A DNA stretch of 64,000 nucleotides from an uncultured Chloroflexia bacterium (GCA_963750025.1 CAVVPF010000036.1:69523-133522), one strand, 5' to 3'. Counted from the first letter of the stretch, positions 351 through 25,165 are shown. A program made the numbers and translations. Notes: generated from the sequence alone by a model not told the origin.

Positions 351-802
351 GCCGCTAGGCTACGACCGTGGCGGCTGGAGAGCAAGACCTAATGTGTGAG
401 GAAGTGTGTGAGGAATTCCCCGCAGTTCGGGGCGAATGCCTAGTGGAGCAGCTCGCTGTAGGGCTGGTGTGCGCGGACCCACGCGCCGACCTGATCCTCC
501 GACTGGGCGCCCATGCTCCCGCGCCAGATAAGCGTCCAACCGGTCGCGCAGCTAAGCGAGCCGCTCCCCGTACGAGGCTTTCGCGTCTGCCACCCGGTCG
601 GGATCGCTGCTGATCGTCTGCATGCGAGGAGAAGGAGCTTAACGACGTCGTCGATGCGAGCCAGCAGCGCGCTGTCGGTCCCGCTCGGCGCGACCGGAGC
701 CGCCGCCGGCTGCTTGCCCGGACCGCGCGAACGAGACATCAGGCTTCCCCTGTGGTTGGCAGCGGCCACCCTCCGAGCGCGGCCTGAAGGTTCGTCACTT
801 GG

Positions 803-1923
803 TCACGCTGCTTCGGTCCAATCTTCTTGAACGATCGCTCTCGTGGACCAGCTGGCCACCTCGCGCGCAACGAACGCCCGGACACCGATCTCATCCGCTC
901 GCGTCAGGACGTCGCTTTGCCAGGCCGGGACCTTCGCCGGCCCGTCCACCTGGAACGGTGCGATCATGAACCCGAGGTCGACCTCGAGTCGCGTGGCCGC
1001 GACGAGAACGCCCAGCGCGATGTCGACCGGGGCGAGCTCGCGCGGCAGCAGCCGATCGAGTTCGAGGGCAACCTTCGTGGGCTCCGGGAGTCGCGATCGT
1101 GCCCAGTCCTCGAACCAGTAGCGCTCGTTCGGGGGCAGCCGGCGCAGTCGACCGAAGAGCACCAGCGCCGCGTGGTGTAGGGTCCAATGCGCGGGCGCCG
1201 ACTCGGCCTCTGTTATCTCGCGGGCGTGGTCGAGGGTGTCGGCGAAGTCGAAGCCGACTGCCTGAGTCGCCGGTCGACCTCGACGTCGAGGATCCCGCAG
1301 AGCGGCATGATCGTGTCGACCTCCTCGCAGCCGACAAAGCGCAGTGCGTTCGGATAGCCCTCGTCGGCGAGGACGATGTGCATCAGCTCGTGGCCGAGAT
1401 CCTCCGGATCGGGATCAGCGCACAGCCCGATGTGTACGCCGCCGTTCTCGGTCCAGGCGTGGTGACTGATGAGTGTCCCGACGTTTGGAGGCGACTCGCT
1501 TGCGGGGTGCACCTCGATCCGACGCCGGCGTCCGACCTGGCGCCAGAGCTCGCGGACACGCGGGTCTCGACGGACCCTTCGGATCTGCTCTGGACCGGCG
1601 TCGGTGCCGACCACGAGCTCCCAGCCATGCTCGCCCAGAGCGTCGCGCATTGCCGAGACATCGGCCGGGCTCGGCCCGGCGAGCGTCGCCGACGGTAGAA
1701 GCACGACACCTCCTGCTTCCTCGGTGTCGAGCGCGAGCAGGTGGCGCCAACTGCGCCGCCGGTCGAAGCGCAAATCTGCCTCGGCATGGTGGATGAGGTA
1801 AACCCCGAGCAGCCGCCCTCGCGAGTCGTGACCGGCAGCAACGAGCGATCCGTGGCGGCCGAGACGGCGCATCCCAAGATCGGCCGTCCGACGGTGGTCG
1901 ACGCGTTCGAGGAGTCGGCGCAT
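803..1923 (-). CDS. Hypothetical protein with HExxH motif (possible zinc metallopeptidase), interrupted by an apparent frameshift near 1261-1266
   Basis: ATG at 1923. Contains 'EDLGHELMHIVLADEGYP' (HExxH). The frame of ORF 1213..2037 ends in low-complexity 'STSPTPSTTPAR'. The frame of ORF 803..1162 stays open and protein-like upstream of its listed start ('QAVGFDFADTLDHAREITEAESAPAHWTLHHAALVLFGRL'). The two frames join at 'VEVDRRL|QAVGF'. Confidence 0.5.
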
Positions 1924-1955
1924 CGACCAGATCGGAAACGGGTGATGGCGCCCGC

Positions 1956-2420
1956 TCACGCTCGTGCCTCGTCTTCGCCGTCGGCCTCGATCGCCGCCAG
2001 CTCGGCCTCGACCCGCGTCGGAATGACTCTGAGCCACGGCGCCATCAGTTCGCGCCGCCGCGCGTCTGAGATCTCATATCGGAGGAAGAACGCGTAGAGG
2101 TGATTGGCGATCGTCAGCAGTGCGCCGTCGCGCTCGGAGCGGGTGAGCTCGGCCTCGCCCGGCGCGCCGAGCACGATGACGGCCGAGCCCGCGACCGCCT
2201 CCTCGGCAGCGTACTGCTCCTCTCGATCCATGTCGTAGGCGATGGCCATGAGCTCCGCCATCGGAACGAGGTCGACGCCAGCCCCCGCAGTCGCGTAGCG
2301 CCGGAGCGTCTCTGAATCGCCCATATCGGCGAGCAGCTGGGCGACCTGCGAGACATACAGGTTGAGGTAGGCCACGCCACCCTGACCACCAGTCTCAGGA
2401 GTCATCTCACCTTCGTTCAT
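1956..2420 (-). CDS. Hypothetical protein (154 aa)
   Basis: ATG at 2420 overlaps the TGA of the upstream nuclease gene (ATGA). The translation 'MNEGEMTPETGGQGGVAYLNLYVSQVAQLLADMGDSETLRRY...' has a balanced, protein-like composition. No family recognised. Confidence 0.6.
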   Translation of the reverse strand: MNEGEMTPETGGQGGVAYLNLYVSQVAQLLADMGDSETLRRYATAGAGVDLVPMAELMAIAYDMDREEQYAAEEAVAGSAVIVLGAPGEAELTRSERDGALLTIANHLYAFFLRYEISDARRRELMAPWLRVIPTRVEAELAAIEADGEDEARA

Positions 2421-4244
2421 CGATACGCGCGGAGCCAGCCGACGACCTCGGCCATCACGCGGCAGTCGACTTCGTTGTAGGCGCCGATCTCGCGCATCAG
2501 CTCGAGCTCGGTCATCGGCACCCCGGTCCGGCGCGCCTCGCCGTCGCACCACCAGGCACCGACCATCGCGCCGAGACCGTCGGTCGGCCCGTCGCCCCAG
2601 GTCGTCTCGATCAGCCCGGCGGCTCGCATCGCCTTGGCGATCGACTTGAGGCCGAAGTTGAAGGCGCCCGTGACGCTGACCGGCTCCGCCCGGACAACTC
2701 GCGACAGAAAGTCGAACCATGGCAGCTCGATCGGCCAGGCGGCCTCGGCGTGGCGGGTCCGAGCGGCGTTGTAGGCGGTCTCGAGGTTGACGGGCTCGGC
2801 CGGCGACCAGTGGATGATCCGGGCATCGGCGAGCGTCGCGCCGGCATCGGCGACGACCGTGCCCATCGTCGCGAGCCAAGCCTCGATGATCCGACCCTCG
2901 AACGCGGGATCCAGCCGCTCGGCGGTCCACTGGGCGAACTGCCAGGCGCCGTTGCCGAACCAGCCACAGCCAATCTGGAAGATCGAGCGCCTGGCCGCCC
3001 ATCGCCGGCAAGCGGGTGAAGTCGTCGCCGAGGTTGTTGACCGTCTCGAAGTCGACGAAGAACTCGACTCGCGCGGCCGTCCGCCAGGCGGGATCGGCAC
3101 GACCAACCCGGCCGGGGAGAACGGTTCGTACGAGCGACTGATTCGCGGCGAGGACGGCGTTGCAGAGGGCAACGCCGTCCTGGGTCGTGATGCCCAGCTG
3201 GGCCGCCGACAGGCCGGGTTCGTCCCAGCGCTGGATCCCGGCGGCGTGGGCAAGTGCTCGCCGGTCGGAGTTCATCCGGGGAAGGACCGTGAGCTCGCCG
3301 AGCGCGCTGCCGATCTCGGCCTTCGCCGCGTGCCACGGCGCGTCCTCGGTGTTCCGCAGGTGGGGATAGAGCTCGGGCACGGACGGGCGGGGCACGACGT
3401 CCCAACCGGCGCCCCCGGCCCGCAGCCGGCGGATCCAGTCAACGCCCCGGAGGGCGAGTTCCTCGAGGCTCAGGTCGCGGCTGTCGAGCCAGCGATCCTC
3501 GTCGACCCGTGCGAGCCGCTCGAGGCAGCCGCCGCCGCGCTCGTCCCCGCCGCGCGCGGTCCAGTTCCGGCCGAGGAGATAGGCCGACTTCGGGCGGTAG
3601 CCCTGAAGCCGCCCGAGCATCCGGTTGTAGAGCCAGACCTGGACGAGATACGGCAGCGAATCGCCCTCGCCCGCCGAGCCGTCGGCCCGGACCTCGAACG
3701 TGTGGAACTTGATGTCGACTACCCGGTAGTGATGGTGGGCGGCCCCGATCAGCGGCGCGCCCATTGCGACGTCGTCGTCGGGGATCGCGTCGGGAAAGAG
3801 CCGGGCGAGGACGTCAGAACGAACGAGTAGGTCGGCCACCCCGTAGGTCCGGCTCGGCTCGTCGCGCAGGACGGCGCCGGCGATGATCGGGACCCCGGCG
3901 CGCATCGCCGCCAGCGTCGCGTCGAGGCGCTCACGGGAGCGCGAATGCGCGGGCTCGGTGGCGATCCGGACGATCTGGTCGTGCGTCTCAAACAGGGCGA
4001 CGACGGCCGCTTCGAAGCGCTCGCCCTGGGCCCGGACGAAGGCGCCGAAGTCGGTCCGCGGGTCGAATCCGTCGCGCTCGTCGTCGGGCACGAAGCCTCG
4101 CTCCCGACCGTGGCGACCGAGCCAGTCGAGGAGCGGGTCGCCGAGGGCGAAGGCCCGCGTTCGGGTCGGGCTGATCCAGGTGTCCCAGTCGGCGCTGGTC
4201 GTCGGCTCGTGAACGGTCGGTCCGGCGCCGGCCGCGCTCGGCAT
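2417..4244 (-). CDS. RecB-like nuclease, TM0106 type: PD-(D/E)xK nuclease plus RNase H-fold 3'-5' exonuclease module. It is in frame with jetD and carries a frameshift near 2986-2990.
   Basis: PD-(D/E)xK-like 'GVADLLVR...HHHYRVVDIKFHT'. Exonuclease motifs 'VEFFVDFET', 'SIFQIGCGW', 'IIHWSPAEP' and 'YNEVDCRVM'. The N-terminal part lies in the frame of ORF 1956..5570 and the C-terminal part in ORF 2417..3253. An internal ATG at 4244 is possible, but there is no stop between it and jetD. Confidence 0.7.
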
Positions 4245-4304
4245 GCTCGCCGCTCGCTCGCCGGCGACGAGGATCGGATCGATCGCCAGGCGCGACGCGG
4301 TCGA

Positions 4305-5570
4305 GAGGTCGTCGATCAGCGCCTCGATCGTCTGCTCCTCGAAGACCGCGAGCCCGCGCTCGGCCATCGCCGCGGCGAGAGCGGGGTCCCACGGCGAGGC
4401 TGCACGGTCACCGACGAGCGGCCGCAGCACCGCGCCGGATCGGCCAACGGCTGCCCGATAGTCGCTGGCCCGGAAGCGCCACGGCCGGGCGCCGACACGC
4501 TCGATCACGAGGCGCGCGATGCGGAGCCCCGGCCAGTCGAAGTCACCGTGATAACGAAGGGTGACACCCTGCTCGCGGAGAGTGCGCAGGAGAAGACGGG
4601 CAGCGGTCGACGGCTGGCCTTCGGTCGCGATCAGGGGAACGCGAAGGTCCGGAACGGCCTCGACCGCAGCGCGCACGACAGACGGGTTCTCGCAGACGTA
4701 GACCGTCCGGGCCTCGCTTCGGAGCGCGCCCACGTCGACGAGCCCGGTGATCGTCCGGAGCGTAAGGCGCGCGGGCTGGCCGGACTCCGCGAAACCGCTG
4801 ATCGCTCGGGCGAGCGGATCGGCGGAGGACAGCCGCAGACCGGCGACGAGCACGACCGAGGCGAGATCGTCAACGGCGACGCCGGCCGCCGACCACAGCT
4901 CGCGTCGACTCTCCGCGTCGGTCGCAAACGGCAGCCCGGTCCGGGCGGCGACCGCCTTAAGTACGAGGGTCGCGAGCGGCATGCCGTCGTCGAGCGCGTG
5001 GGCGTCGCCGGTCACCGCCGTCGCGAGCCGCTCGAGCGAGCGCGGCTCGTCAAGCCTCCGAAGAACGTCGAGGGCGGTTTGCAGGAGCTTCTCCTCACGC
5101 CCGGACGGACCGCCGAGCCGGCGGACGAGGCCGGTCCGGCGCAGCTCGCCCAGCCATATCGCAAGGGCGGGATCGGCCGCGACGAGAGGATCGCCGAAGG
5201 CCTCCGACCAGAGCGCGTCGCGAGCCTCGGTCGCAGCCGTCCGCTCCGCCCGCCGAAGGGCGATCGGCCCACCGAGCGCCTCGACCGCGTCGCGGATCCC
5301 ACAGCCGAGCCGACTCGCCCGGAGGGCGGCGTCGAGCCGAGCGATGGCCAGACGACCTCCTTCCTGGGGAGTCCGCTTGGCCGAGATGAGCCCGGCGAGG
5401 CCCACGAGCTCGTCGGCATCGAGCCCGGCGAGGCTGATCGAGCCGGTCGGCTCGCCGTCGGTCCGCTCGAGTGCGCCCCGGGCGCGTTCGAAGATGCGCG
5501 CGTGGCGCGATCCGCCCAGCAACGAGCGGATTGCCTCGGGATCAGGAGCGGGACCGAGCGGGAGGGCCAC
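4305..5570 (-). CDS. jetD: Wadjet JetD (TIGR02679/DUF2399, Toprim nuclease) module
   Basis: GTG at 5570, 3 nt after the jetC stop. Contains 'RTVYVCENPSVVRAA', 'PLIATEGQPSTAARLLL', 'LRYHGDFDWPGLRIA' (Toprim E and DxD) and a C-terminal 'FEEQTIEALIDDL'. No stop codon follows in this frame, and the ORF runs on to 1956. Confidence 0.85.
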
Positions 5571-5573
5571 CGA

Positions 5574-8500
5574 CTAGGACGCCCCCGCGGCGGCGAGCTC
5601 GGACGCGTGGAGGAACTCCGATCCTGTCCAGATGAAGTGCTCGGCGTGGACGGCCTGGAGCTCGGCCCGATGGACGAGGTGATAGACAGCCGTCCCCGAC
5701 AGCTCCGCATACATTCCCCACTCCCCGAAGGCGGTCGCGAAGAAGCTGAAGTCGAACTGGTCAAGAAGGCCATAGAGACGGCCCCGTACGACGTCGTCGA
5801 TGCCGGCGAACGCCTCGTCGAGGAGGAGCAGCCGCGGCGCGAACAGGGCGGCCGACCTGTAGTGGGCGGCGAGCGCGGCGAGGAGCGGCAGGTGGAGCTT
5901 GACCGACTTCTCGCCGCCCGATCCGGTCCCGTGACTCTTCTTGGTCAGGAAGCGATGGTGACCGGCCGCGTCGACCTCCTCGATCTCGAACCGGTGCCAG
6001 TGGCGGTAGTCGATCGCCCGCGCGAGGCGCTCTGCCCAGGTGCCGTCGCTGTCCTTCTCCCGAGCGATCTCCACCTGAGATCGGAAGAACTCGATGATCG
6101 ACTCCCAGTGGCCCTCGTCGAGCAGGGTCGGGTCACGTCGAAGCAGCCCGACCGCCTCGCCGACGCCGGCCGCGGACAGCGGGTCGACCGCCCAATGGAG
6201 GCGGACTCGATCGCCATCGGGTAGCTTCACCTGGGCGAGGACGTCGTTCATGGCATCGACGAGATCGTGTGCCTCGCGGATCCGCTCACCGAGGTGGCGC
6301 CCGACCTGGCCGAGCAGGAAGTCCTCGAAGACCTCGCGTTCGCGCTTGCTCAGATCGGCCGTCATCTGGTCGACGTCGTGATCGAGCCCGGCGCGAAGGC
6401 TGACGATCGTCTGGGGCTGGCCGGCGCGATGGACGACCGGCACGAACATTCCGTCGTCGATCTGCTGCTCGAGCCGGTAGTCGTCGCCGAGCTGGCTCTG
6501 GAGCGTTCGGTAGCGGGTGTAGACCTCGTTCGTCGCCGCGTTGAGCTCGGTCCGATCGACGTTTCGACTGCCGGTCGCGCGGAAGACCGCCCGGGCGACG
6601 TCGACGGTCTGGGTGACCGACCAGTCGCTGGTCGGTCCGTCGGGCGGAGCGTCGATGACGAGACCGAGGAGATCGGGCACGGCCGCGAGCGTCCGGAACC
6701 GCTCGGCGGCCCCGTTGCGCTCCTGCTCGCGCTCGCCCTGCAGCCCGCGCTCGCCCTCGAGCCTGGTCTCGGCTCCGGCCACCGCCCGGAGCGCGTCCTC
6801 CTTGTCGCGCTGGGCAGACGCGTCATCGTCCTTGAGCTTGTCGTGCCTGCCCCGTGCCGCTTCGAGCTCAGTCAGGATCTGCGCGACCGACGCGCCGACC
6901 GTCCGCTTGAGGGTGTCGTAGGTCGACTGGCGTGTCTCAGCCTGCAGGCCAGCCTCGCCCGCCTCCCTCGCGGCGCTTTCGAGCGCCTTCTGTGCCGCGG
7001 TCACGGCGCTCTCGGCCTCGGCCAGGTCGGTGGTGTCCTGGGTGAGGAGCACGAGAAGTGAAGCCAGCTCTCCGAGCGAGCCGCGATACGTCGTGAGGCC
7101 GTCGTGCAGCTCGTCGAGCCGCTCGAGCTGATCGGCCAGCCCCGACGTTGCAGCCATCGCCCGGAGCTCGTCCCGCGCCAGGCCGAGCGCCGCGCCGGCT
7201 GTGGCGTGCCGGGTCGCGGCCTCGAGCCCCGTCGCGAGCTCGAAGACGCTTCTGTGCCGACCGCTCGGCCGCGCGTGCGTCGACGAGCGCTTGATCGTCT
7301 GGTGCCGCCGTCCGCTCCCGGGCCAGACGCTCCTCGCGCCTGACGACCTGCTGGAGCTTGGCGTCGACACTCGCGATCGAGTCATCGATCTCGCTGATCC
7401 GTGCCTCGAGCCTCGCGATCGCTCGCTCGCGGGTCAGCTCTCGGGCGCCGGCCCCGATGAACTCGGCGTCGGTCTTCTCGAACCGGCCGACGAGTGGCCC
7501 GATCCGGTAGCTCCCGTCGAGCCCGACGGCGACCGATGCGGGCCGATCGCTCCCGAGCGCGATCGCATCGAGCGCGCGGGCGACGAGTTCGGTCGGGACC
7601 GCGAGACCATCGACCGGCCGGAGCGCCGACCGCAGCGTCGCGCCGGTCCCGGCCCGCGGGCTCGCCGGATCGAAGGCGGCATCGAGGACGTCGGGTCCGA
7701 GCAGGCTCCCGTCGGGCATCATCCAGGCATCGAGGATGCCTCCCGCTTCGAGGGCGGCCTCGAGGCCAGCCTGGTCGCTCGCCGTCAGGCCCGGGACGAA
7801 GTCAACGAGGGCGTAGAACGGCGCCCCGTCGCGCCCGGCCCGCGAGGCAGGCCGGGTCGGGGATGATTCGGGTCCGATCGACGCCGAGGCGTGGACCGCC
7901 TCGAGTTCCGCCTCGACCTGGTCGCGCTGGCCGACGAGGCCACTGCGCTCGAGTTCGGCTCGCGCTCGGGCCGCAGCGAGACCGACCTTGGCCGGTTCGG
8001 CGACCGCCTCGAGCCGTGGCCGAAGGGCCTCGCCGGCCGTCAGCTGCTCGTCGAGATCATCGAGAGCACCCGGTTCGACGACGATCTCTCGAAGGCTCTC
8101 GGCCCACGTGGTCACCCGTTCGGCGAGCGCGCGGAGCACAGCGCCTGTTCCGGCCTCGGCGGTCATCGCCTCATCGGCGGCAGCCTCGCGTTCCGAGCTC
8201 GCGCGGCGAGCGGCATCGGCGGCGAGTGTCTCGGCCCGCTCGAGCGGCTCGATCTCTCGCCGTCGCCGGCGAAGGTCATCGACGACGACCGCGCGCGCCT
8301 GCTCGAGCTGCGTCGCTTCGGTCAGCGCGAGCTGGGCGACCTCGGGATCGTCATCGGCGAGCAGGCCGTCCAGCCCGCGATGCTCATCCGCGAGGCTCGC
8401 CATCTGGGCCGCGGTCGCCGCCGTTCGGAGCTTCGCGCCGAGCTCCTGGCGGTTGCGATCCCGTCGCTTGACAAGCCTGTCGTGCCGCTCGGTCTGGGCC

Positions 8501-9675
8501 CGGTGGGCGGTCGTCGCGGCCGTCTCGCGGCTGGCCGCGCTCACGGCGAGTCGGCGCGCCTCATCGGCCGCCTGACCGGCCTGCTCGAGCGCCTGTGCGT
8601 TCCGGAACGCCTCCGAGCGCTCGAGTGCGCCGATCTCGCCGGTGATCCGGGCGGTCTCGTCGGCGATCTGGCGACGCCGGTCCTTCGCAGCGGTCTCGGT
8701 GATCGTCGCCGCCTCGAGGGACTGCGCGGCTGCCGTGACCTTCTCGCGTCCGGCGTCATACGCGGAGTGGGCGGTCCGGAGCTCGGCGCCGCGGAGTGCC
8801 AGCTGGCCCGTCGCGTAGTCCCGATAGACGCCGAGGAACTCGCCGACGGCCCGCGCGGCGGCCTTCGTCTCGTCGAGCACCTCCTCGCGCTGGCGGAGCC
8901 CCTCGAGCGAGTCGGCCTGCTCGGCGACGATGACGGAGTCGAGGGGCGGGAGCGCGGTGTCCAGGAACTCGCGCAGCGCCTCGGGTTCGAGCCGTTGGCT
9001 GAGCTGCGGGCGGCGCACCGCGAGGAGAAGGGTGATCAGCGCCTCGTAACGCTCGGGCCCGAGACCGAACAGGCGCTCGTCGACAACGTTCCGGTAGCGT
9101 TCTCGTCGGCCGCCGATCCGGGTGTCGAAGATCTCGCCCCGCTGACCGATCCGCTCGGCCAGTCCGTCGGCGCTCAGTGCGTGGCGACCGCCGGCCTCGT
9201 CGCTCTCCCACAGCTCGAGCTCCTCGCCGATCCGCTGGTCAGTGATGAAGTAGTGGATGAGCTCTGACTTCGCGCCGCGGGTCGCCCGCAGCCGCGCACC
9301 GATCGTCACGCAGACCGGCTCGCCACCGTCGTCAAGACGGCCGAACTCGAGCCACAGCCAGCTGTTCCGCTGCTCCTGCTCGGGTTCAGCCTCGGTCCCG
9401 CCCAGAAGGTTCCAGCGCATCCGCCGGTCGCCATGACCGAACGGATCGAGGCGGCGGGCATCGGTCGAGGCATCGAGGAGGAACGGCAGCAGGAGTTCGA
9501 GCGCCTTCGTCTTGCCCGACTCGTTCGCACCGCGAAGGATGAGGTTGCCCCGGTAGAACTCGAAGACCTGGTCGTCGTAGTGCCAGATGTCGCCGAGCCC
9601 GGCGCGGAGCGGGCGCCAGCGCGCGTCGATCGCCTGGGGCAGCATCGACGCGCACGGCAGGGCGGTGACGGTCAT
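5574..9675 (-). CDS. jetC: Wadjet JetC (TIGR02680 SMC-like ATPase), with an apparent frameshift at about 7247-7253
   Basis: ATG at 9675 overlaps the jetB stop (ATGA). N-terminus 'RWRPLRAGLGDIWHYDDQVFEFYRGNLILRGANESGKTKALELLLPFLLD' (Walker A). Long coiled-coil middle region. C-terminus 'GSGGEKSVKLHLPLL...LLLLDEAFAGID' (signature motif and Walker B). The two halves lie in different frames (ORFs 6937..10125 and 5574..7385). Confidence 0.85.
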
Positions 9676-10958
9676 GACGGCGTGGCCTCCGGATCGGGGA
9701 ACGTGAGCCCGAGCTGCTCGCCAACACCCGCTCGCTCGGGCACGGCTACGGCTCGGAACCGAGCGATGGCCGGCATCGGCCGAACGCCGGACGGGGTGAA
9801 ACGGACGAGCCGGTAGGCGACGAGGATCGCGAGTGCGTCGGCCGTCAGCACCTCGACGAGGTCGGTCCTCGCGAGATAGGTCGGCGGCCAGTGGGCCCGA
9901 TGCTCCTCGATGAGCTCGGCGACCAGGGCTTCGATCTCGGCCACCGGCACGACGAGGATCGGGTCCGTGGCGACCCGGAGCCGCTCCGCCAGCCACTCGG
10001 CGACCAGGAGCGCGGCATGGGGTCGGACGCCTTCGCCCGGGAAGTGGATGCGGTCGACGAGCTCGTCGGCCTCGTCGATCGCCGCGATACCCTCGGCCCG
10101 GCGCTCGAGGACCATCCCCGTCCATGCCATGAGTTCGTCCTCCAGGCCTCGGCGCTGGAGGAGGTGTATCCGTTCGCCCTCGCCGAGGTCCTCCTCGTAG
10201 ACGGCCGGCTCGTCGACGAGCCGGCGCATGACCGCGTGACGATCGCGCGCCTGGCGGCCACGCTCGGTCGGCGGATAGGGCTCGTCGAGCAGCTCGTCCG
10301 CCCCTCCCGCCTGCGACGGGATCTTCGTGCCCCCGACCGCGACGAGGTGACCGAGCAGGCCTCGATCGATATCGTAGAACGCGTCGTCCTCGGCAACGCC
10401 CGAGAAGTAGCGCTCGGCATCGCCTTCCCGGAGGGTCAGGACGCCCAGGCCCTCGAGCATGGCGAGGACGTCGATGAACGCCTTGCGCTCGGCATAGACC
10501 GTTGGCTCGAACGTGTCAATCGCGGCCTCGACCTGGGTCCGGGCACGAACGCCGTCGGCGAGCCGCGAAAGGATCGTCTGCTGGGCCCCCGACGCATCGA
10601 GCTCGGCGGAGGTGACGCAGAAGAGGACGTAGCGACGGACGTCGAAGGGTCGCTCGCGCCCGGGCGCGACCGCCGGGTGGGTCGGATCCGCGGCGGCCGC
10701 GACGCGCTTGTGGAGCCGGGCGAAGCGACCCCGTGGATCCACGACGAGGGTCCAGCCAAGCTGCTCGCGGAACCAGCGCCCGACGGGCTCGGCATGGCGA
10801 CGAACGAGGATGAAACCGACGGGGTCGGGATCATGCGGGCGGACGAGCGGCGAGCGGAGAAGGAGGCGGACCGCCCGCCGGCGCTCCTCGTCAGCCCGCT
10901 CGGTCGCGGTCGCAAGCGCTGGCACGGCGGCGACCCGCGCGACGGTCGACGTCGCCAC
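9672..10958 (-). CDS. jetB: Wadjet JetB (TIGR02678/DUF2398)
   Basis: 'RAVRLLLRSPLVRPHDPDPVGFILVRRHAEPVGRWFREQLGWTLVVDPRGRFARLHKR' is typical of TIGR02678. Start is GTG at 10958 (or GTG at 10925), overlapping the end of jetA. The stop overlaps the jetC ATG. Confidence 0.8.
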   Translation of the reverse strand: MATSTVARVAAVPALATATERADEERRRAVRLLLRSPLVRPHDPDPVGFILVRRHAEPVGRWFREQLGWTLVVDPRGRFARLHKRVAAAADPTHPAVAPGRERPFDVRRYVLFCVTSAELDASGAQQTILSRLADGVRARTQVEAAIDTFEPTVYAERKAFIDVLAMLEGLGVLTLREGDAERYFSGVAEDDAFYDIDRGLLGHLVAVGGTKIPSQAGGADELLDEPYPPTERGRQARDRHAVMRRLVDEPAVYEEDLGEGERIHLLQRRGLEDELMAWTGMVLERRAEGIAAIDEADELVDRIHFPGEGVRPHAALLVAEWLAERLRVATDPILVVPVAEIEALVAELIEEHRAHWPPTYLARTDLVEVLTADALAILVAYRLVRFTPSGVRPMPAIARFRAVAVPERAGVGEQLGLTFPDPEATPS

Positions 10959-12516
10959 GCTCGTGACCTCGGACCGAAGTCGCGGCTCCGGAGATTGCCG
11001 CGCGGCGCCCGGATCGTGGCCCAGGTCGCCTGAGCAGGCTCGACGAGTCGGATCGCCAGGCGGCCGTCTGCGCTCGGGGCTTCGCGGACACCGTCCGTCG
11101 CCGGATCCGAGAAGGCGCGGGCCGGAGCTCGAGGAGTGCGTCGAGTTCGTCGTCGGAGACCACGCCGAGCTCCGACAGGCGGAAGGCGCCCTGGTCGACG
11201 AATCGGGCGAGCGCGATCGCCCGCCGCTCGCGTCGGACGCGCTCCTGCTCGGCGATGAGGGCCCGCTCGCGTGAGCGGTCGGTCGCCGGGCCGAACCGGC
11301 CGGCCGAGGACGCTCGACCGACCGCGCGCAGCCGTGGAGCGACGTGGACCGGTGGCACGTCCAGCCACGACGGTCGCCCGCGGACGAGTTCGGGGTCGGG
11401 CACGGCGAGCGTGAAGTGGCGCGTTCCAGACAGACCAAAGGCGGTCCGCCACAGCCGATGCGCGTCGTCTGCGTCGTCGAGAGCGGCGAACCAGCGGGCG
11501 AGGGCCATGAAGTCGGCGGCTCGCGGGATCCGGCCGCGGCTCGCCTCCCAGATCCGCTCGAGGACACGGATGAGGCTCGCGATCGCCGTCTGGGCCTGGC
11601 CCTCGAGCGCGCGGTAGCGGGCCGGCTCGGACCGGCTACCGACGAACCAGACTCGGAGCCCCGCCCACGACGCCTCGATCTCGGCGATTCGCGCGGCGAC
11701 CGGGTCCTCTCCTTCCCGGAGCCCGCCGGCGAGCTCGGTCTCGGCGGCAGCTGCCTCGGCGAGTCGGCGCACGTCGTCTTCGGCCAGGCCGGTCGCGATC
11801 GCGCCGATCGCCGGGGCCTTCGTCTGGAGCTCACGAACGAAGTCGGTGACGTATTCGACGATCCGGGTCTTGGCGAGCAGGAACCGCTCGCGGTCGATGT
11901 CGGCCGCGCTCGTCAGCTCGTCGAGGTTGGCGATGAACCGCGCCGCGTTGTCGGTCATGTTCGTGAACGCGGCATCGAGGCGGCCGAAGACGCTTGCGGC
12001 GCTTGTTCCGACTGATGGATCGCCAACGGCCCCGGCGAGACCTCGAAGATATGTCAGATCGGCGGCGATGTCGGCGAGGAGGACCTTCTGGAGCGAGCCC
12101 GTTCGGGCAAGGGCCGCATCGACCCGAACGACCGCCTCGTGAGCGGCGAGGCCGGTCTCGGTGATCTGCCAGATCTCGCGCCGGCTGAGATATTCGGCCT
12201 TCGTATGGACCGGCGCATTGTCCTCGGTCCGCCGAAGCAGCTCCCAGTCCTTGAGCTGGCCGAGGATCGTGTCAAGGCCGTCACCGCCCTCAAGATCGGT
12301 CGCAAACGGTGAGCGCTCCAGGAGATCGAGCACCTCGTGAGCGCGAAGCGACGGCACATAGCGGACGCGTGATTCTGCGAACGCGGCGAGTACCGCCCGA
12401 TACGTCCCGGCCTTCTGCGCGGTCGCGAACGACAACGCCCGGACGGGACCGAGCGAACGCCTGCCTGGCGGCTGGGCGATCGATCGTGCCTCATATGCAC
12501 AGAACGCAGCCTGCAC
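10891..12516 (-). CDS. jetA: Wadjet JetA (TIGR02677/DUF2397)
   Basis: 'RALSFATAQKAGTYRAVLAAFAESRVRYVPSLRAHEVLDLLE...KAEYLSRREIWQITETGLAAHEAV' matches the TIGR02677 N-terminus. The start is uncertain: there is no ATG, GTG at 12516 is possible, and an in-frame TTG about 70 nt downstream of it is an alternative. The upstream part of ORF 10891..13221 is Arg/Pro-rich nonsense. Confidence 0.75.
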   Translation of the reverse strand: MQAAFCAYEARSIAQPPGRRSLGPVRALSFATAQKAGTYRAVLAAFAESRVRYVPSLRAHEVLDLLERSPFATDLEGGDGLDTILGQLKDWELLRRTEDNAPVHTKAEYLSRREIWQITETGLAAHEAVVRVDAALARTGSLQKVLLADIAADLTYLRGLAGAVGDPSVGTSAASVFGRLDAAFTNMTDNAARFIANLDELTSAADIDRERFLLAKTRIVEYVTDFVRELQTKAPAIGAIATGLAEDDVRRLAEAAAAETELAGGLREGEDPVAARIAEIEASWAGLRVWFVGSRSEPARYRALEGQAQTAIASLIRVLERIWEASRGRIPRAADFMALARWFAALDDADDAHRLWRTAFGLSGTRHFTLAVPDPELVRGRPSWLDVPPVHVAPRLRAVGRASSAGRFGPATDRSRERALIAEQERVRRERRAIALARFVDQGAFRLSELGVVSDDELDALLELRPAPSRIRRRTVSAKPRAQTAAWRSDSSSLLRRPGPRSGRRAAISGAATSVRGHERGDVDRRAGRRRASACDRDRAG

Positions 12517-24984: not shown

Positions 24985-25165
24985 GGACGGATGCCGGACG
25001 GCCCGCGCCTTTCTCTCGAAGGCGACGCGTGGACCAAGCGCAGAGGCCGGTGATCTGGCTCCCGCCCGGCTGGGCGGATACAGTTGCGGGACAGCGCCGG
25101 CTTCGCACCGGCTTCCCCGTTGCTCTCGCCTTGCGGCGAGCGCACCTCTGTCGCTATTCAGTTGT
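24985..25165 (-). promoter_or_regulatory. Cobalamin (B12) riboswitch in the leader of the btuF-cobT operon
   Basis: The minus strand reads '...AACGGGAAGCCGGTGCGAAGCCGGCGCTGTCCCGCAACTGTA...' followed by the B12 box 'GGGAGCCAGATCACCGGCC' (25046-25063). P1-like pairing CAGAGG/CCTCTG is present. A downstream hairpin CCGAGGG-N9-CCCTCGG lies at ~24938-24960, before the RBS. Confidence 0.85.

What the first reader, a model, noticed from the sequence alone, without database searches (positions are those of the whole stretch)
2417..5570. JetD reads through, with no in-frame stop, into a RecB-like PD-(D/E)xK plus DnaQ-like exonuclease module
The JetD-homologous region ends at '...FEEQTIEALIDDL' (about 4305). 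The same frame then continues through a ~20-aa linker into a TM0106-type nuclease. That module has 'GVADLLVR...YRVVDIKFHT', then 'FFVDFET', 'IFQIGCGW', 'HWSPAEP' and 'YNEVDCRVM'. I found no stop in this frame between 5570 and 2990. The other two frames offer no JetD-like continuation. As assembled, the Wadjet cleavage subunit is therefore fused to an end-processing nuclease/exonuclease. I am not aware of a described Wadjet with this architecture. One possible role is degradation of the plasmid right after Toprim cleavage. Because this assembly carries many indels, a separate nuclease gene starting at ATG 4244 with a lost jetD stop cannot be excluded.
Basis: partly seen in the sequence, partly recalled or inferred. 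Interest (0 to 1): 0.75.

Follow-up and report, generated by a model that had tools for sequence, protein, structure and literature searches.

The report
Wadjet JetD fused to dual nuclease
The DNA-cutting subunit (JetD) of this anti-plasmid Wadjet system really is one protein with a two-part DNA-degrading module on its tail; the same fusion recurs in all three Wadjet types in many uncultured bacteria and I found no paper describing it.

Summary
On the minus strand, jetD (type II, TIGR02679) ends its family match exactly at ...IDDL (window 4305). The same frame runs through a roughly 35-residue disordered linker into a roughly 600-residue module.

- **Assembly check.** An independent Logan contig matches window 528-7240 except for two substitutions and one base. 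The junction is the same in both, and the Logan contig lacks the window's extra base near 2985. It therefore encodes an intact 1050-aa protein.
- **Recurrence.** About 55 of the 120 closest homologues of the module are also JetD fusions (JetD2 or JetD3), sitting in complete jetABCD operons. More distant ones are JetD1 fusions.
- **Closest jetD relative.** It is 85% identical and unfused. Homology stops at window 4277, five codons before that relative's stop. The junction is therefore a recombination breakpoint, not a lost stop codon.
- **What the module is.** It has a RecB/Cas4/MGME1-like PD-(D/E)xK domain and a DEDDy 3'-5' exonuclease domain, remotely related to TM0106/TIGR03491. The catalytic residues are conserved.

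The most likely role (inferred) is degradation of plasmid ends straight after Toprim cleavage. I rate it a new variant of a known system.

The parts
10891..12440 (-). jetA (type II kleisin-like subunit, TIGR02677). The start is approximate.
   Evidence: ORF 10891..13221 matches TIGR02677 from ORF residue 264, E 9e-88.
9672..10874 (-). jetB (type II KITE subunit, TIGR02678). The start is approximate.
   Evidence: ORF 9672..11834, residues 321-696, matches TIGR02678 positions 1-373 of 376, E 1.6e-64.
5574..9680 (-). jetC (type II SMC ATPase, TIGR02680), split into two ORFs in this assembly.
   Evidence: ORF 6937..10125 covers profile positions 1-811 and ORF 5574..7385 covers 794-1353. tblastn with JetC2 of L088 changes frame between 7345 and 6974.
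7243..7247 (-). One extra base in jetC relative to the 85%-identical locus L091 (CGTCTTCG versus CGT-TTCG). It causes the jetC frame break.
   Evidence: Alignment A3 and three-frame reading. Logan contig L001 starts at 7240, so it cannot confirm or refute this.
4305..5570 (-). JetD2 part of the fusion (residues 1-422): CAP-like N-terminal domain (PF11796) plus Toprim domain (PF09664), with VCENPS and HGDFD motifs.
   Evidence: TIGR02679 314.5 bits against a cut-off of 196; PF11796 and PF09664. PADLOC JetD2 model PDLC00557, E 2.7e-128, residues 9-425. Foldseek match to topoisomerase VI-A, 1d3y.
4200..4304 (-). Linker (residues 423-457), predicted disordered. It contains the homology breakpoint with unfused jetD at 4277 and the internal ATG at 4244.
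   Evidence: pLDDT below 50 for residues 431-448. blastn homology to L091 ends at 4277, and P0121 ends ...STASRLAKDRPE*.
3396..4199 (-). RecB/Cas4/MGME1-like PD-(D/E)xK nuclease domain (residues ~458-725). Motifs: E520, G577-x-x-D580, D619-x-K621, Q644-x3-Y648.
   Evidence: Invariant or nearly invariant columns. Foldseek top matches are Cas4 8d3l_I and MGME1 5zyt. pLDDT ~96-98.
3081..3395 (-). Helical connector between the two nuclease domains (residues ~726-830).
   Evidence: Secondary structure of the AlphaFold model. Conserved columns W746, K750, T761, R771, N810.
2417..3080 (-). DEDDy 3'-5' exonuclease domain (RNase H-like fold, residues ~831-1050) plus stop codon. Motifs: Exo I D840-F-E842, Exo II-like H920-W-S-x-x-E925, Exo III Y1031-x3-D1035. 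It is read in two frames in this assembly.
   Evidence: Signature invariant in 120 of 120 homologues. Foldseek matches to E. coli ExoI, the DinG exonuclease domain, a DnaQ domain and PolB exonuclease domains. PF13482 is matched weakly by 37 of 58 relatives.
2984..2986 (-). One extra base in the window assembly that breaks the exonuclease frame. It is absent from the Logan contig.
1956..2420 (-). 154-aa ORF whose ATG overlaps the fusion's stop codon (ATGA). No family match. Not conserved next to other fusions, so membership in the system is doubtful.
   Evidence: Gene call in L001 at 4820-5284. No Pfam hit. Other fused loci have different downstream genes.

Best explanation
This is a complete type II Wadjet (jetABCD) operon. 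Its last gene encodes a single 1050-residue protein made of a full JetD2 subunit (CAP-like plus Toprim), a flexible linker, and a ~600-residue two-domain nuclease module. That module has a RecB-like PD-(D/E)xK nuclease domain followed by a DEDDy 3'-5' exonuclease domain.

**Shown.**
- The ORF is continuous.
- The fusion recurs with JetD1, JetD2 and JetD3.
- Both active-site signatures and the Toprim motifs are intact in the window protein.

**Inferred mechanism.**
1. JetABC loop-extrudes and recognises a small circular DNA.
2. The JetD Toprim dimer makes the double-strand cut. This is known for Wadjet types I and II.
3. The two tethered nuclease modules then attack the new ends directly. The DEDDy domain chews the recessed 3' strand, and the RecB-like domain removes the exposed 5' single strand.
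4. The cut therefore cannot be re-ligated or repaired by recombination, and destruction no longer depends on host RecBCD/AddAB-type enzymes.

The two 1-bp insertions in the window (near 2985 and 7245) are most likely assembly errors.
For: **Continuity.** The junction is identical in the independent contig L001, which encodes the intact 1050-aa protein P0001.

**Recurrence.**
- Among the 120 best homologues of the module there are 10 JetD2 fusions and 45 JetD3 fusions.
- JetD1 fusions P0241 and P0257, and further JetD2 and JetD3 fusions, turn up in the 50%-identity cluster library.
- Fused genes lie in full operons: L002 (JetA3/B3/C3), L088 (JetA2/B2/C2), L090 and L016.
- Fused modules group together and apart from standalone ones.

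**Active sites.**
- The DEDDy signature is invariant in 120 of 120.
- The PD-(D/E)xK signature is canonical in the window protein.
- The Toprim GDxD motif is kept in all 53 fusions with an N-terminal part of at least 300 residues.

**Fold.** The module is modelled at pLDDT 96-98 and the linker below 50. Foldseek gives Cas4 and MGME1, then ExoI, DnaQ and PolB exonuclease domains, and topoisomerase VI-A for the JetD part.

**Other partners.** The same module is also fused to SF2 helicases and AAA ATPases, which are typical partners of DNA-degrading nucleases.

**Background.** Wadjet I and II products are linear DNA with 1-4 nt 5' overhangs that need RecBCD for removal in vitro (bioRxiv 10.1101/2025.03.10.642339 and 10.1101/2022.10.04.510915).
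Against: - No activity data exist for this module or for any close relative. There is no solved structure by sequence search, and TIGR03491 and PF13482 are matched only below their cut-offs.
- Polarity and substrate are inferred from family resemblance alone.
- In five JetD fusions (P0021, P0241, P0257, P0268, P0275) the PD-(D/E)xK site is degenerate. The two-strand 'cut and chew' picture therefore cannot hold for every member.
- The fusion is rare among JetD2: none of the 120 closest JetD2 homologues has it, and the nearest relative (85% identical) lacks it.
- In this assembly both jetC and the module carry a frameshift. Only the one in the module is contradicted by another assembly.
Confidence: 0.6

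Rival explanations
1. jetD and a nuclease gene starting at ATG 4244 are two separate genes. The open frame between them would then be an assembly indel or a very recent loss of the jetD stop codon, with no functional meaning.
For: - The window assembly does carry 1-bp insertions.
- A stop-free 21-codon stretch is expected by chance 72% of the time at this composition.
- M443 lies about 20 residues upstream of the conserved WDxW, where standalone homologues start.
- The closest JetD2 relative is unfused.
Against: - The junction is identical in the Logan contig.
- Dozens of diverged homologues are fused in frame through linkers that have no internal Met.
- The window's module belongs to the fused clade.
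- Homology to the unfused relative ends before its stop codon, so the stop was replaced by recombination rather than mutated.
- Within the fused clade, only two contig-truncated fragments, P0016 and P0037, are not fused.
Confidence: 0.03
2. The locus is a decaying pseudogene system. On this reading the frameshifts near 2985 (module) and 7245 (jetC) are real mutations, so the fusion is a relic in this genome.
For: - There are two 1-bp insertions within about 4.3 kb of the operon.
- The jetC insertion could not be checked, because the Logan contig starts at 7240.
Against: - The insertion near 2985 is absent from the Logan contig, which otherwise differs by only two substitutions in 6.7 kb.
- All catalytic residues are intact, and no other stops or deletions were seen.
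Confidence: 0.1
3. The module is not an end-degrading enzyme in Wadjet. It might instead act as a DNA-binding or clamp-like accessory. Or only its DEDDy domain might work, for example by trimming 3' ends so that JetD turns over, or by removing nicked or blocked ends.
For: - The PD-(D/E)xK site has decayed in five JetD fusions while the DEDDy site is always kept.
- No helicase is present in the fusion.
Against: - 43 of 55 close fusions keep the fully canonical PD-(D/E)xK signature, and 54 of 55 keep D580, D/E619 and K621. The window protein is among them.
- The invariant DEDDy site argues for catalysis rather than a purely structural role.
Confidence: 0.15
4. The module widens or changes the target of Wadjet. 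It might attack linear phage DNA or replication intermediates, or degrade host DNA as an abortive-infection effector once JetABC is triggered.
For: - The same module is attached to other motors: ResIII/DEAD/Lhr-type helicases and AAA ATPases.
- A standalone copy lies next to a restriction-modification pair. The module therefore looks like a general-purpose effector.
Against: - The Toprim motifs are retained in all fusions, so the normal cleavage step is kept.
- Standalone copies have no conserved defence neighbourhood in 80 genomes.
- Nothing indicates toxicity control, such as an antitoxin or inhibitor gene.
Confidence: 0.12

Closest known systems
Type II Wadjet (JetABCD-II, e.g. Neobacillus vireti; TIGR02677-02680 gene set)
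   Same: - The four genes are in the same order.
- JetA2, JetB2 and JetC2 match the family models, and the JetD part scores above the TIGR02679 cut-off.
- The Toprim motifs are present.
   Different: - JetD here is 1050 residues rather than ~400-440, because it carries a ~600-residue dual nuclease at the C-terminus.
- None of the 120 nearest JetD2 homologues has this extension.
- Described systems leave a linear product that RecBCD must remove.
TM0106 family RecB-like putative nuclease (TIGR03491) / YprB-type RNase_H_2 proteins (PF13482)
   Same: - The order of domains is the same: PD-(D/E)xK domain, then an RNase H-like exonuclease domain.
- 56 of 58 standalone relatives give weak TIGR03491 matches (best E 7e-11) and 37 of 58 give weak PF13482 matches.
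   Different: - The window protein scores far below the curated cut-off (20.3 against 97.45 bits).
- The module is longer (~600 residues against a 462-position profile).
- It forms a family of its own: the A1 profile, which also includes ~270 JetD positions, finds 1640 clusters at E <= 1e-30.
- As far as I know, neither family has been characterised biochemically.
RecB nuclease domain / Cas4 / MGME1 (PD-(D/E)xK end-processing nucleases)
   Same: - The motif set E, GxxD, (D/E)xK and QxxxY is present.
- These are the best Foldseek matches (8d3l_I, 5zyt).
   Different: - There is no four-cysteine Fe-S cluster as in Cas4; only one conserved Cys lies in the domain.
- There is a ~38-residue insert between motifs II and III.
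- It is not attached to a helicase here.
DEDDy 3'-5' exonucleases (PolB proofreading domain, E. coli ExoI, DnaQ-like domains)
   Same: - Exo I DxE and Exo III YxxxD are invariant.
- It has the RNase H-like fold.
   Different: - The Exo II position carries Glu in an HWSxxE motif rather than the usual NxxxFD.
- Sequence similarity to curated families is marginal.
Helicase-nuclease end-resection machines (RecBCD, AddAB, AdnAB, Cas3)
   Same: - A DNA motor is coupled to a degradative nuclease that acts after target recognition.
- The same module is fused to SF2 helicases in other proteins.
   Different: Here the motor is an SMC complex and the link runs through the Toprim cleavage subunit. This is analogy only, not homology of the whole system.

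Membership tests
Wadjet JetD, type II (TIGR02679; PF11796 + PF09664) | Score above the curated family cut-off over the full profile | tested here: met
   TIGR02679 scores 314.5 bits against 196, covering profile positions 1-382 of 382. PF11796 scores 163.7 and PF09664 159.4 bits. PADLOC JetD2, E 2.7e-128.
Wadjet JetD, type II (TIGR02679; PF11796 + PF09664) | Toprim acidic motifs (conserved Glu, DxD) | tested here: met
   VCENPS and YHGDFD are read directly in the translation. GDxD is present in all 53 fusions with an N-terminal part of at least 300 residues.
Wadjet JetD, type II (TIGR02679; PF11796 + PF09664) | Last gene of a jetA-jetB-jetC-jetD operon | tested here: met
   TIGR02677, TIGR02678 and TIGR02680 matches lie directly upstream on the same strand.
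Wadjet JetD, type II (TIGR02679; PF11796 + PF09664) | Standalone protein of about 400-440 residues | tested here: not met
   This protein has 1050 residues. The 120 nearest JetD2 homologues have 394-510. It is therefore a variant architecture.
Wadjet JetD, type II (TIGR02679; PF11796 + PF09664) | JetABC- and ATP-dependent cleavage of circular DNA | not testable with these tools
   Needs biochemistry.
TM0106 family RecB-like nuclease (TIGR03491) | Score above the curated cut-off | tested here: not met
   20.3 bits against 97.45, and only residues 531-585 match. Relatives match with best E 7e-11.
TM0106 family RecB-like nuclease (TIGR03491) | PD-(D/E)xK domain followed by an RNase H-like exonuclease domain | tested here: met
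   Foldseek and motif analysis.
RecB-family PD-(D/E)xK nucleases (RecB / Cas4 / MGME1) | Motifs E, GxxD, (D/E)xK, QxxxY | tested here: met
   E520, G577/D580, D619/K621 and Q644/Y648 are invariant or at least 90% conserved.
RecB-family PD-(D/E)xK nucleases (RecB / Cas4 / MGME1) | Fold similarity to solved members | tested here: met
   8d3l_I (Cas4), E 3e-4 to 1e-3, probability 1.0. 5zyt (MGME1), probability 1.0.
Cas4 proper | Four conserved cysteines binding an Fe-S cluster | tested here: not met
   Only C682 is conserved within the domain.
DEDDy 3'-5' exonucleases / PF13482 RNase_H_2 | Exo I (DxE), Exo II acidic residue, Exo III (YxxxD) | tested here: met
   D840, E842, E925, Y1031 and D1035 are identical in 120 of 120. 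Exo II carries Glu rather than Asp.
DEDDy 3'-5' exonucleases / PF13482 RNase_H_2 | Pfam gathering score reached | tested here: inconclusive
   The window protein gives no hit. 37 of 58 relatives match weakly. More distant AAA-fused relatives pass: 31-37 bits against 22.
DEDDy 3'-5' exonucleases / PF13482 RNase_H_2 | 3'-5' exonuclease activity | not testable with these tools
   Needs biochemistry.

The most novel reading that the evidence does not exclude
A distinct 'cut-and-chew' class of Wadjet exists in all three types. In it, the SMC-guided Toprim nuclease carries its own end-destroying exonuclease module, which has been exchanged between JetD1, JetD2 and JetD3. This would make plasmid elimination independent of host RecBCD/AddAB and resistant to re-ligation, recombinational rescue and exonuclease inhibitors encoded by mobile elements. 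It would also point to an uncharacterised, widespread nuclease family (~1600 clusters; also in giant viruses, and fused to helicases and AAA ATPases) as a general DNA-destruction effector.
Probability: 0.45. Interest if true: 0.72.

Novelty: new variant of a known kind. Interest (0 to 1): 0.62.

Why it matters
Current Wadjet models stop at a single double-strand cut and leave the fate of the linearised plasmid to host exonucleases. A natural JetD-exonuclease fusion that recurs across all three types makes that missing step directly testable, because it suggests post-cleavage processing is under selection.

It offers three practical openings:
- A ready-made experiment: mutate one nuclease site at a time, with and without RecBCD.
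- A functional handle on a large, unstudied nuclease family related to TM0106/YprB.
- A correction for annotation pipelines, whose JetD models end at residue ~345-425 and therefore miss the extension.

Tried and rejected
- **Solved structures by sequence.** A profile of the module found nothing in the PDB.
- **Curated family libraries.** Pfam and PADLOC have no model for the module.
- **Conserved neighbours.** I looked for conserved neighbours of standalone homologues in 80 species-representative genomes. No gene cluster was shared by more than 9 loci, and none was Wadjet-related apart from the three fused loci.
- **Insertion test.** I asked whether the window's module is a clean insertion relative to the unfused relative L091. 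Downstream DNA and the M78 peptidase gene of L091 have no counterpart in the window, so gain and loss cannot be told apart.
- **Downstream ORFs.** The ORFs after the fusion have no family matches and are not conserved at other fused loci.
- **Literature.** Eight full-text searches and six papers read gave no description of a JetD-nuclease fusion. Krishnan et al. 2020 (NAR) and Deep et al. 2022 (Mol Cell) are not held and could not be checked.
- **Not pursued.** The host taxon. The window's genome is not among the GTDB representatives. The best named JetD2 relatives are Actinomycetota at 38-47% identity.
- **Rfam.** The scan found only a cobalamin riboswitch, which is unrelated to the finding.
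Full report
**1. The observation**

On the minus strand an ORF runs from GTG 5570 to 1956. Its first 422 residues are a full type II JetD:
- TIGR02679 scores 314.5 bits (cut-off 196) and covers profile positions 1-382 of 382. It ends at ...FEEQTIEALIDDL, which is window 4305.
- PF11796 and PF09664 match, and PF09664 also ends at residue 422.
- PADLOC model JetD2 PDLC00557 matches residues 9-425.

'IFQIGCGW', 'HWSPAEP' and 'YNEVDCRVM' sit in the adjacent frame because of one extra base near 2985. Removing one base gives a 1050-residue protein that ends at stop 2417-2419. A stop-free 21-codon linker is not significant by itself at this composition (P = 0.72), so I looked for outside evidence.

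**2. An independent assembly**

The homology search with residues 423-1050 returned P0001, a 1050-residue protein from a Logan assembly (ERR10750395), carrying PF11796 and PF09664. Its contig L001 equals window 528-7240 except for three differences:
- two substitutions, at 3464 and 986;
- the one extra base near 2985, which is present only in the window.

The junction is therefore identical in both, and the frameshift in the module is very likely an assembly error. The protein differs from my corrected translation only by E703K.

jetC is also broken in the window, by one extra base near 7245 relative to the related locus L091. L001 starts at 7240, so this one could not be checked.

**3. The operon**

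Directly upstream on the same strand lie jetA (TIGR02677), jetB (TIGR02678) and jetC (TIGR02680). This is a complete type II Wadjet operon with the fused gene last.

**4. The fusion is recurrent**

Architectures among the 120 best homologues of the module:

| Architecture | Count |
|---|---|
| Standalone, ~600 residues | 59 |
| JetD3 N-terminus | 45 |
| JetD2 N-terminus | 10 |
| Short N-terminal extension | 6 |

- The fused genes examined lie in full operons. P0021 follows JetA3/JetB3/JetC3. P0070 follows JetA2/JetB2/JetC2. P0023 and the L016 gene follow JetC3-type genes.
- A profile search of 1.84 billion cluster representatives found 1640 clusters at E <= 1e-30. Among the long hits are JetD1 fusions (P0241, P0257; PDLC00530, E 4e-136) and further JetD2 and JetD3 fusions.
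- All three Wadjet types therefore carry this module in some lineages.
- In neighbour-joining trees of the module, the JetD-fused copies group together and apart from the standalone copies. JetD1, JetD2 and JetD3 partners are interleaved within that group. This points to exchange of the module between Wadjet types, or repeated capture from one sub-lineage.
- The only unfused members of the fused clade are fragments on contigs of about 2 kb.

**5. The junction is a recombination breakpoint**

- The closest JetD2 relative, P0121, is 85% identical, 434 residues long and unfused.
- Its locus L091 is 85.8% identical at the DNA level to window 7387-4277, and homology stops there. P0121 reads ...STASRLAKDRPE-stop, whereas the window reads ...STASRLAIDPILVAG... 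and runs on into the module.
- Downstream DNA is unrelated.
- The stop codon was therefore replaced, not mutated. Whether the window's lineage gained the module or L091's lineage lost it cannot be decided.
- None of the other 119 nearest JetD2 homologues is fused, so the architecture is rare within JetD2.

**6. What the module is**

*Curated families.* The window protein gives no Pfam or PADLOC hit for the module, and only a 20-bit TIGR03491 match. Of 58 standalone relatives, 56 match TIGR03491 weakly and 37 match PF13482 weakly. The module is thus a remote sister of the TM0106/YprB-type proteins, not a member of the curated family.

*Models.* AlphaFold models are confident. The standalone P0068 model has pLDDT 93 and pTM 0.90. 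In the full fusion the module scores 96-98 and the linker (residues 431-448) is below 50.

*Foldseek against the PDB.*

| Part of the protein | Matches |
|---|---|
| First nuclease domain | Cas4 (8d3l_I), MGME1 (5zyt) |
| Second nuclease domain | E. coli ExoI, the DinG exonuclease domain, a DnaQ domain, PolB proofreading domains |
| JetD part | Topoisomerase VI-A |

*Conserved residues.*
- RecB-type motifs: E520, G577-x-x-D580, D619-x-K621, Q644-x3-Y648.
- DEDDy motifs: D840-x-E842, E925, Y1031-x3-D1035.
- The DEDDy signature is identical in 120 of 120 close homologues.
- The PD-(D/E)xK signature is canonical in 63 of 65 non-JetD sequences in that set and in 43 of 55 fused ones. The window protein is canonical.
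- The PD-(D/E)xK signature is clearly degenerate in five JetD fusions: P0021, P0241, P0257, P0268 and P0275.
- The Toprim GDxD motif is kept in all 53 fusions with an N-terminal part of at least 300 residues.

**7. Other contexts of the module**

- Standalone copies are common in Chloroflexota (Dehalococcoidia, Limnocylindria, Chloroflexia), with some in Acidobacteriota, Planctomycetota and others: 358 species-representative genomes in all. They have no conserved neighbours.
- Other fusion partners are ResIII/DEAD/Lhr-type SF2 helicases at the N-terminus and AAA ATPases at the C-terminus.
- Full-length structural relatives occur in giant viruses: TM 0.78-0.84, E as low as 2e-43.
- Repeated attachment to DNA motors fits a DNA-degrading effector.

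**8. Mechanism**

What is established for Wadjet I and II: JetABC recognises small circular DNA by loop extrusion. JetD then makes a sequence-independent double-strand cut with 1-4 nt 5' overhangs. The linear product persists until RecBCD is added.

What I infer here: the JetD dimer brings two dual-nuclease modules on flexible tethers to the two new ends. The DEDDy domain resects the recessed 3' strands and the RecB-like domain removes the 5' single strands. This blocks ligation and removes the 3' tails needed for recombination. It also makes destruction independent of host exonucleases and their inhibitors.

The decay of the PD-(D/E)xK site in some fusions suggests that the 3'-5' exonuclease is the indispensable activity. 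None of this has been tested.

**9. Novelty**

Full-text searches on Wadjet/JetD/MksG combined with fusion, exonuclease or Cas4, and reading of the main Wadjet papers held, turned up no description of this architecture. Two relevant papers were not available. I rate it a new variant of a known system. The fusion itself I hold at about 0.95 confidence and the proposed mechanism at about 0.5.

Noticed in passing
window 7243-7247 (jetC): One extra base relative to the 85%-identical locus L091 splits jetC into ORFs 6937..10125 and 5574..7385. The Logan contig begins at 7240, right next to the site, so it cannot settle whether this is an error.
   Followed up: partly
window 4277; L091 3116: DNA homology between the window and the nearest unfused Wadjet-II locus ends five codons before that locus's jetD stop. 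Downstream there is an unrelated Peptidase_M78 gene. The 3' end of jetD looks like a recombination point.
   Followed up: yes
P0021, P0241, P0257, P0268, P0275 (alignment A4): In these JetD-fused copies the PD-(D/E)xK catalytic residues are replaced, while the DEDDy residues are intact. No standalone, helicase-fused or AAA-fused copy shows this decay.
   Followed up: partly
P0245, P0247, P0290, P0312, P0340, P0353, P0372, P0355; L058 15-4520: The same ~600-residue module is fused to ResIII/DEAD/Lhr-type helicases, to C-terminal AAA ATPases, to a REase_II-like region, and (in a Planctomycetota MAG) to a ~900-residue N-terminal part with weak similarity to type III restriction enzymes.
   Followed up: partly
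BFVD hits A0A3G4ZWN9, A0A5K0U8I2, A0A3G5AGZ9, E3T4R0: Giant viruses (Faunusvirus, Yasminevirus, Sylvanvirus, Cafeteria roenbergensis virus) encode full-length structural relatives of the two-domain module (TM 0.62-0.84, 14-28% identity).
   Followed up: no
L004 1581-6669: A standalone copy (P0068, Limnocylindrales MAG) lies between an MvaI/BcnI-type restriction endonuclease gene and an HhH-GPD glycosylase gene followed by a C5 DNA methylase gene.
   Followed up: no
window 1956-2420 (-): A 154-aa ORF has a start codon that overlaps the fusion's stop (ATGA). It has no family match. The next ORF (1214-1924, 236 aa) contains an HELMH motif but also has no Pfam match.
   Followed up: partly
window 25028-25164 (-): Cobalamin riboswitch (RF00174, 60 bits). 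It was the only Rfam match in the window.
   Followed up: no
window 3464 and 986: Two substitutions relative to the Logan contig. The one at 3464 changes residue 703 of the fusion (E in the window, K in P0001). The two assemblies therefore represent slightly different variants, or one of them carries an error.
   Followed up: partly
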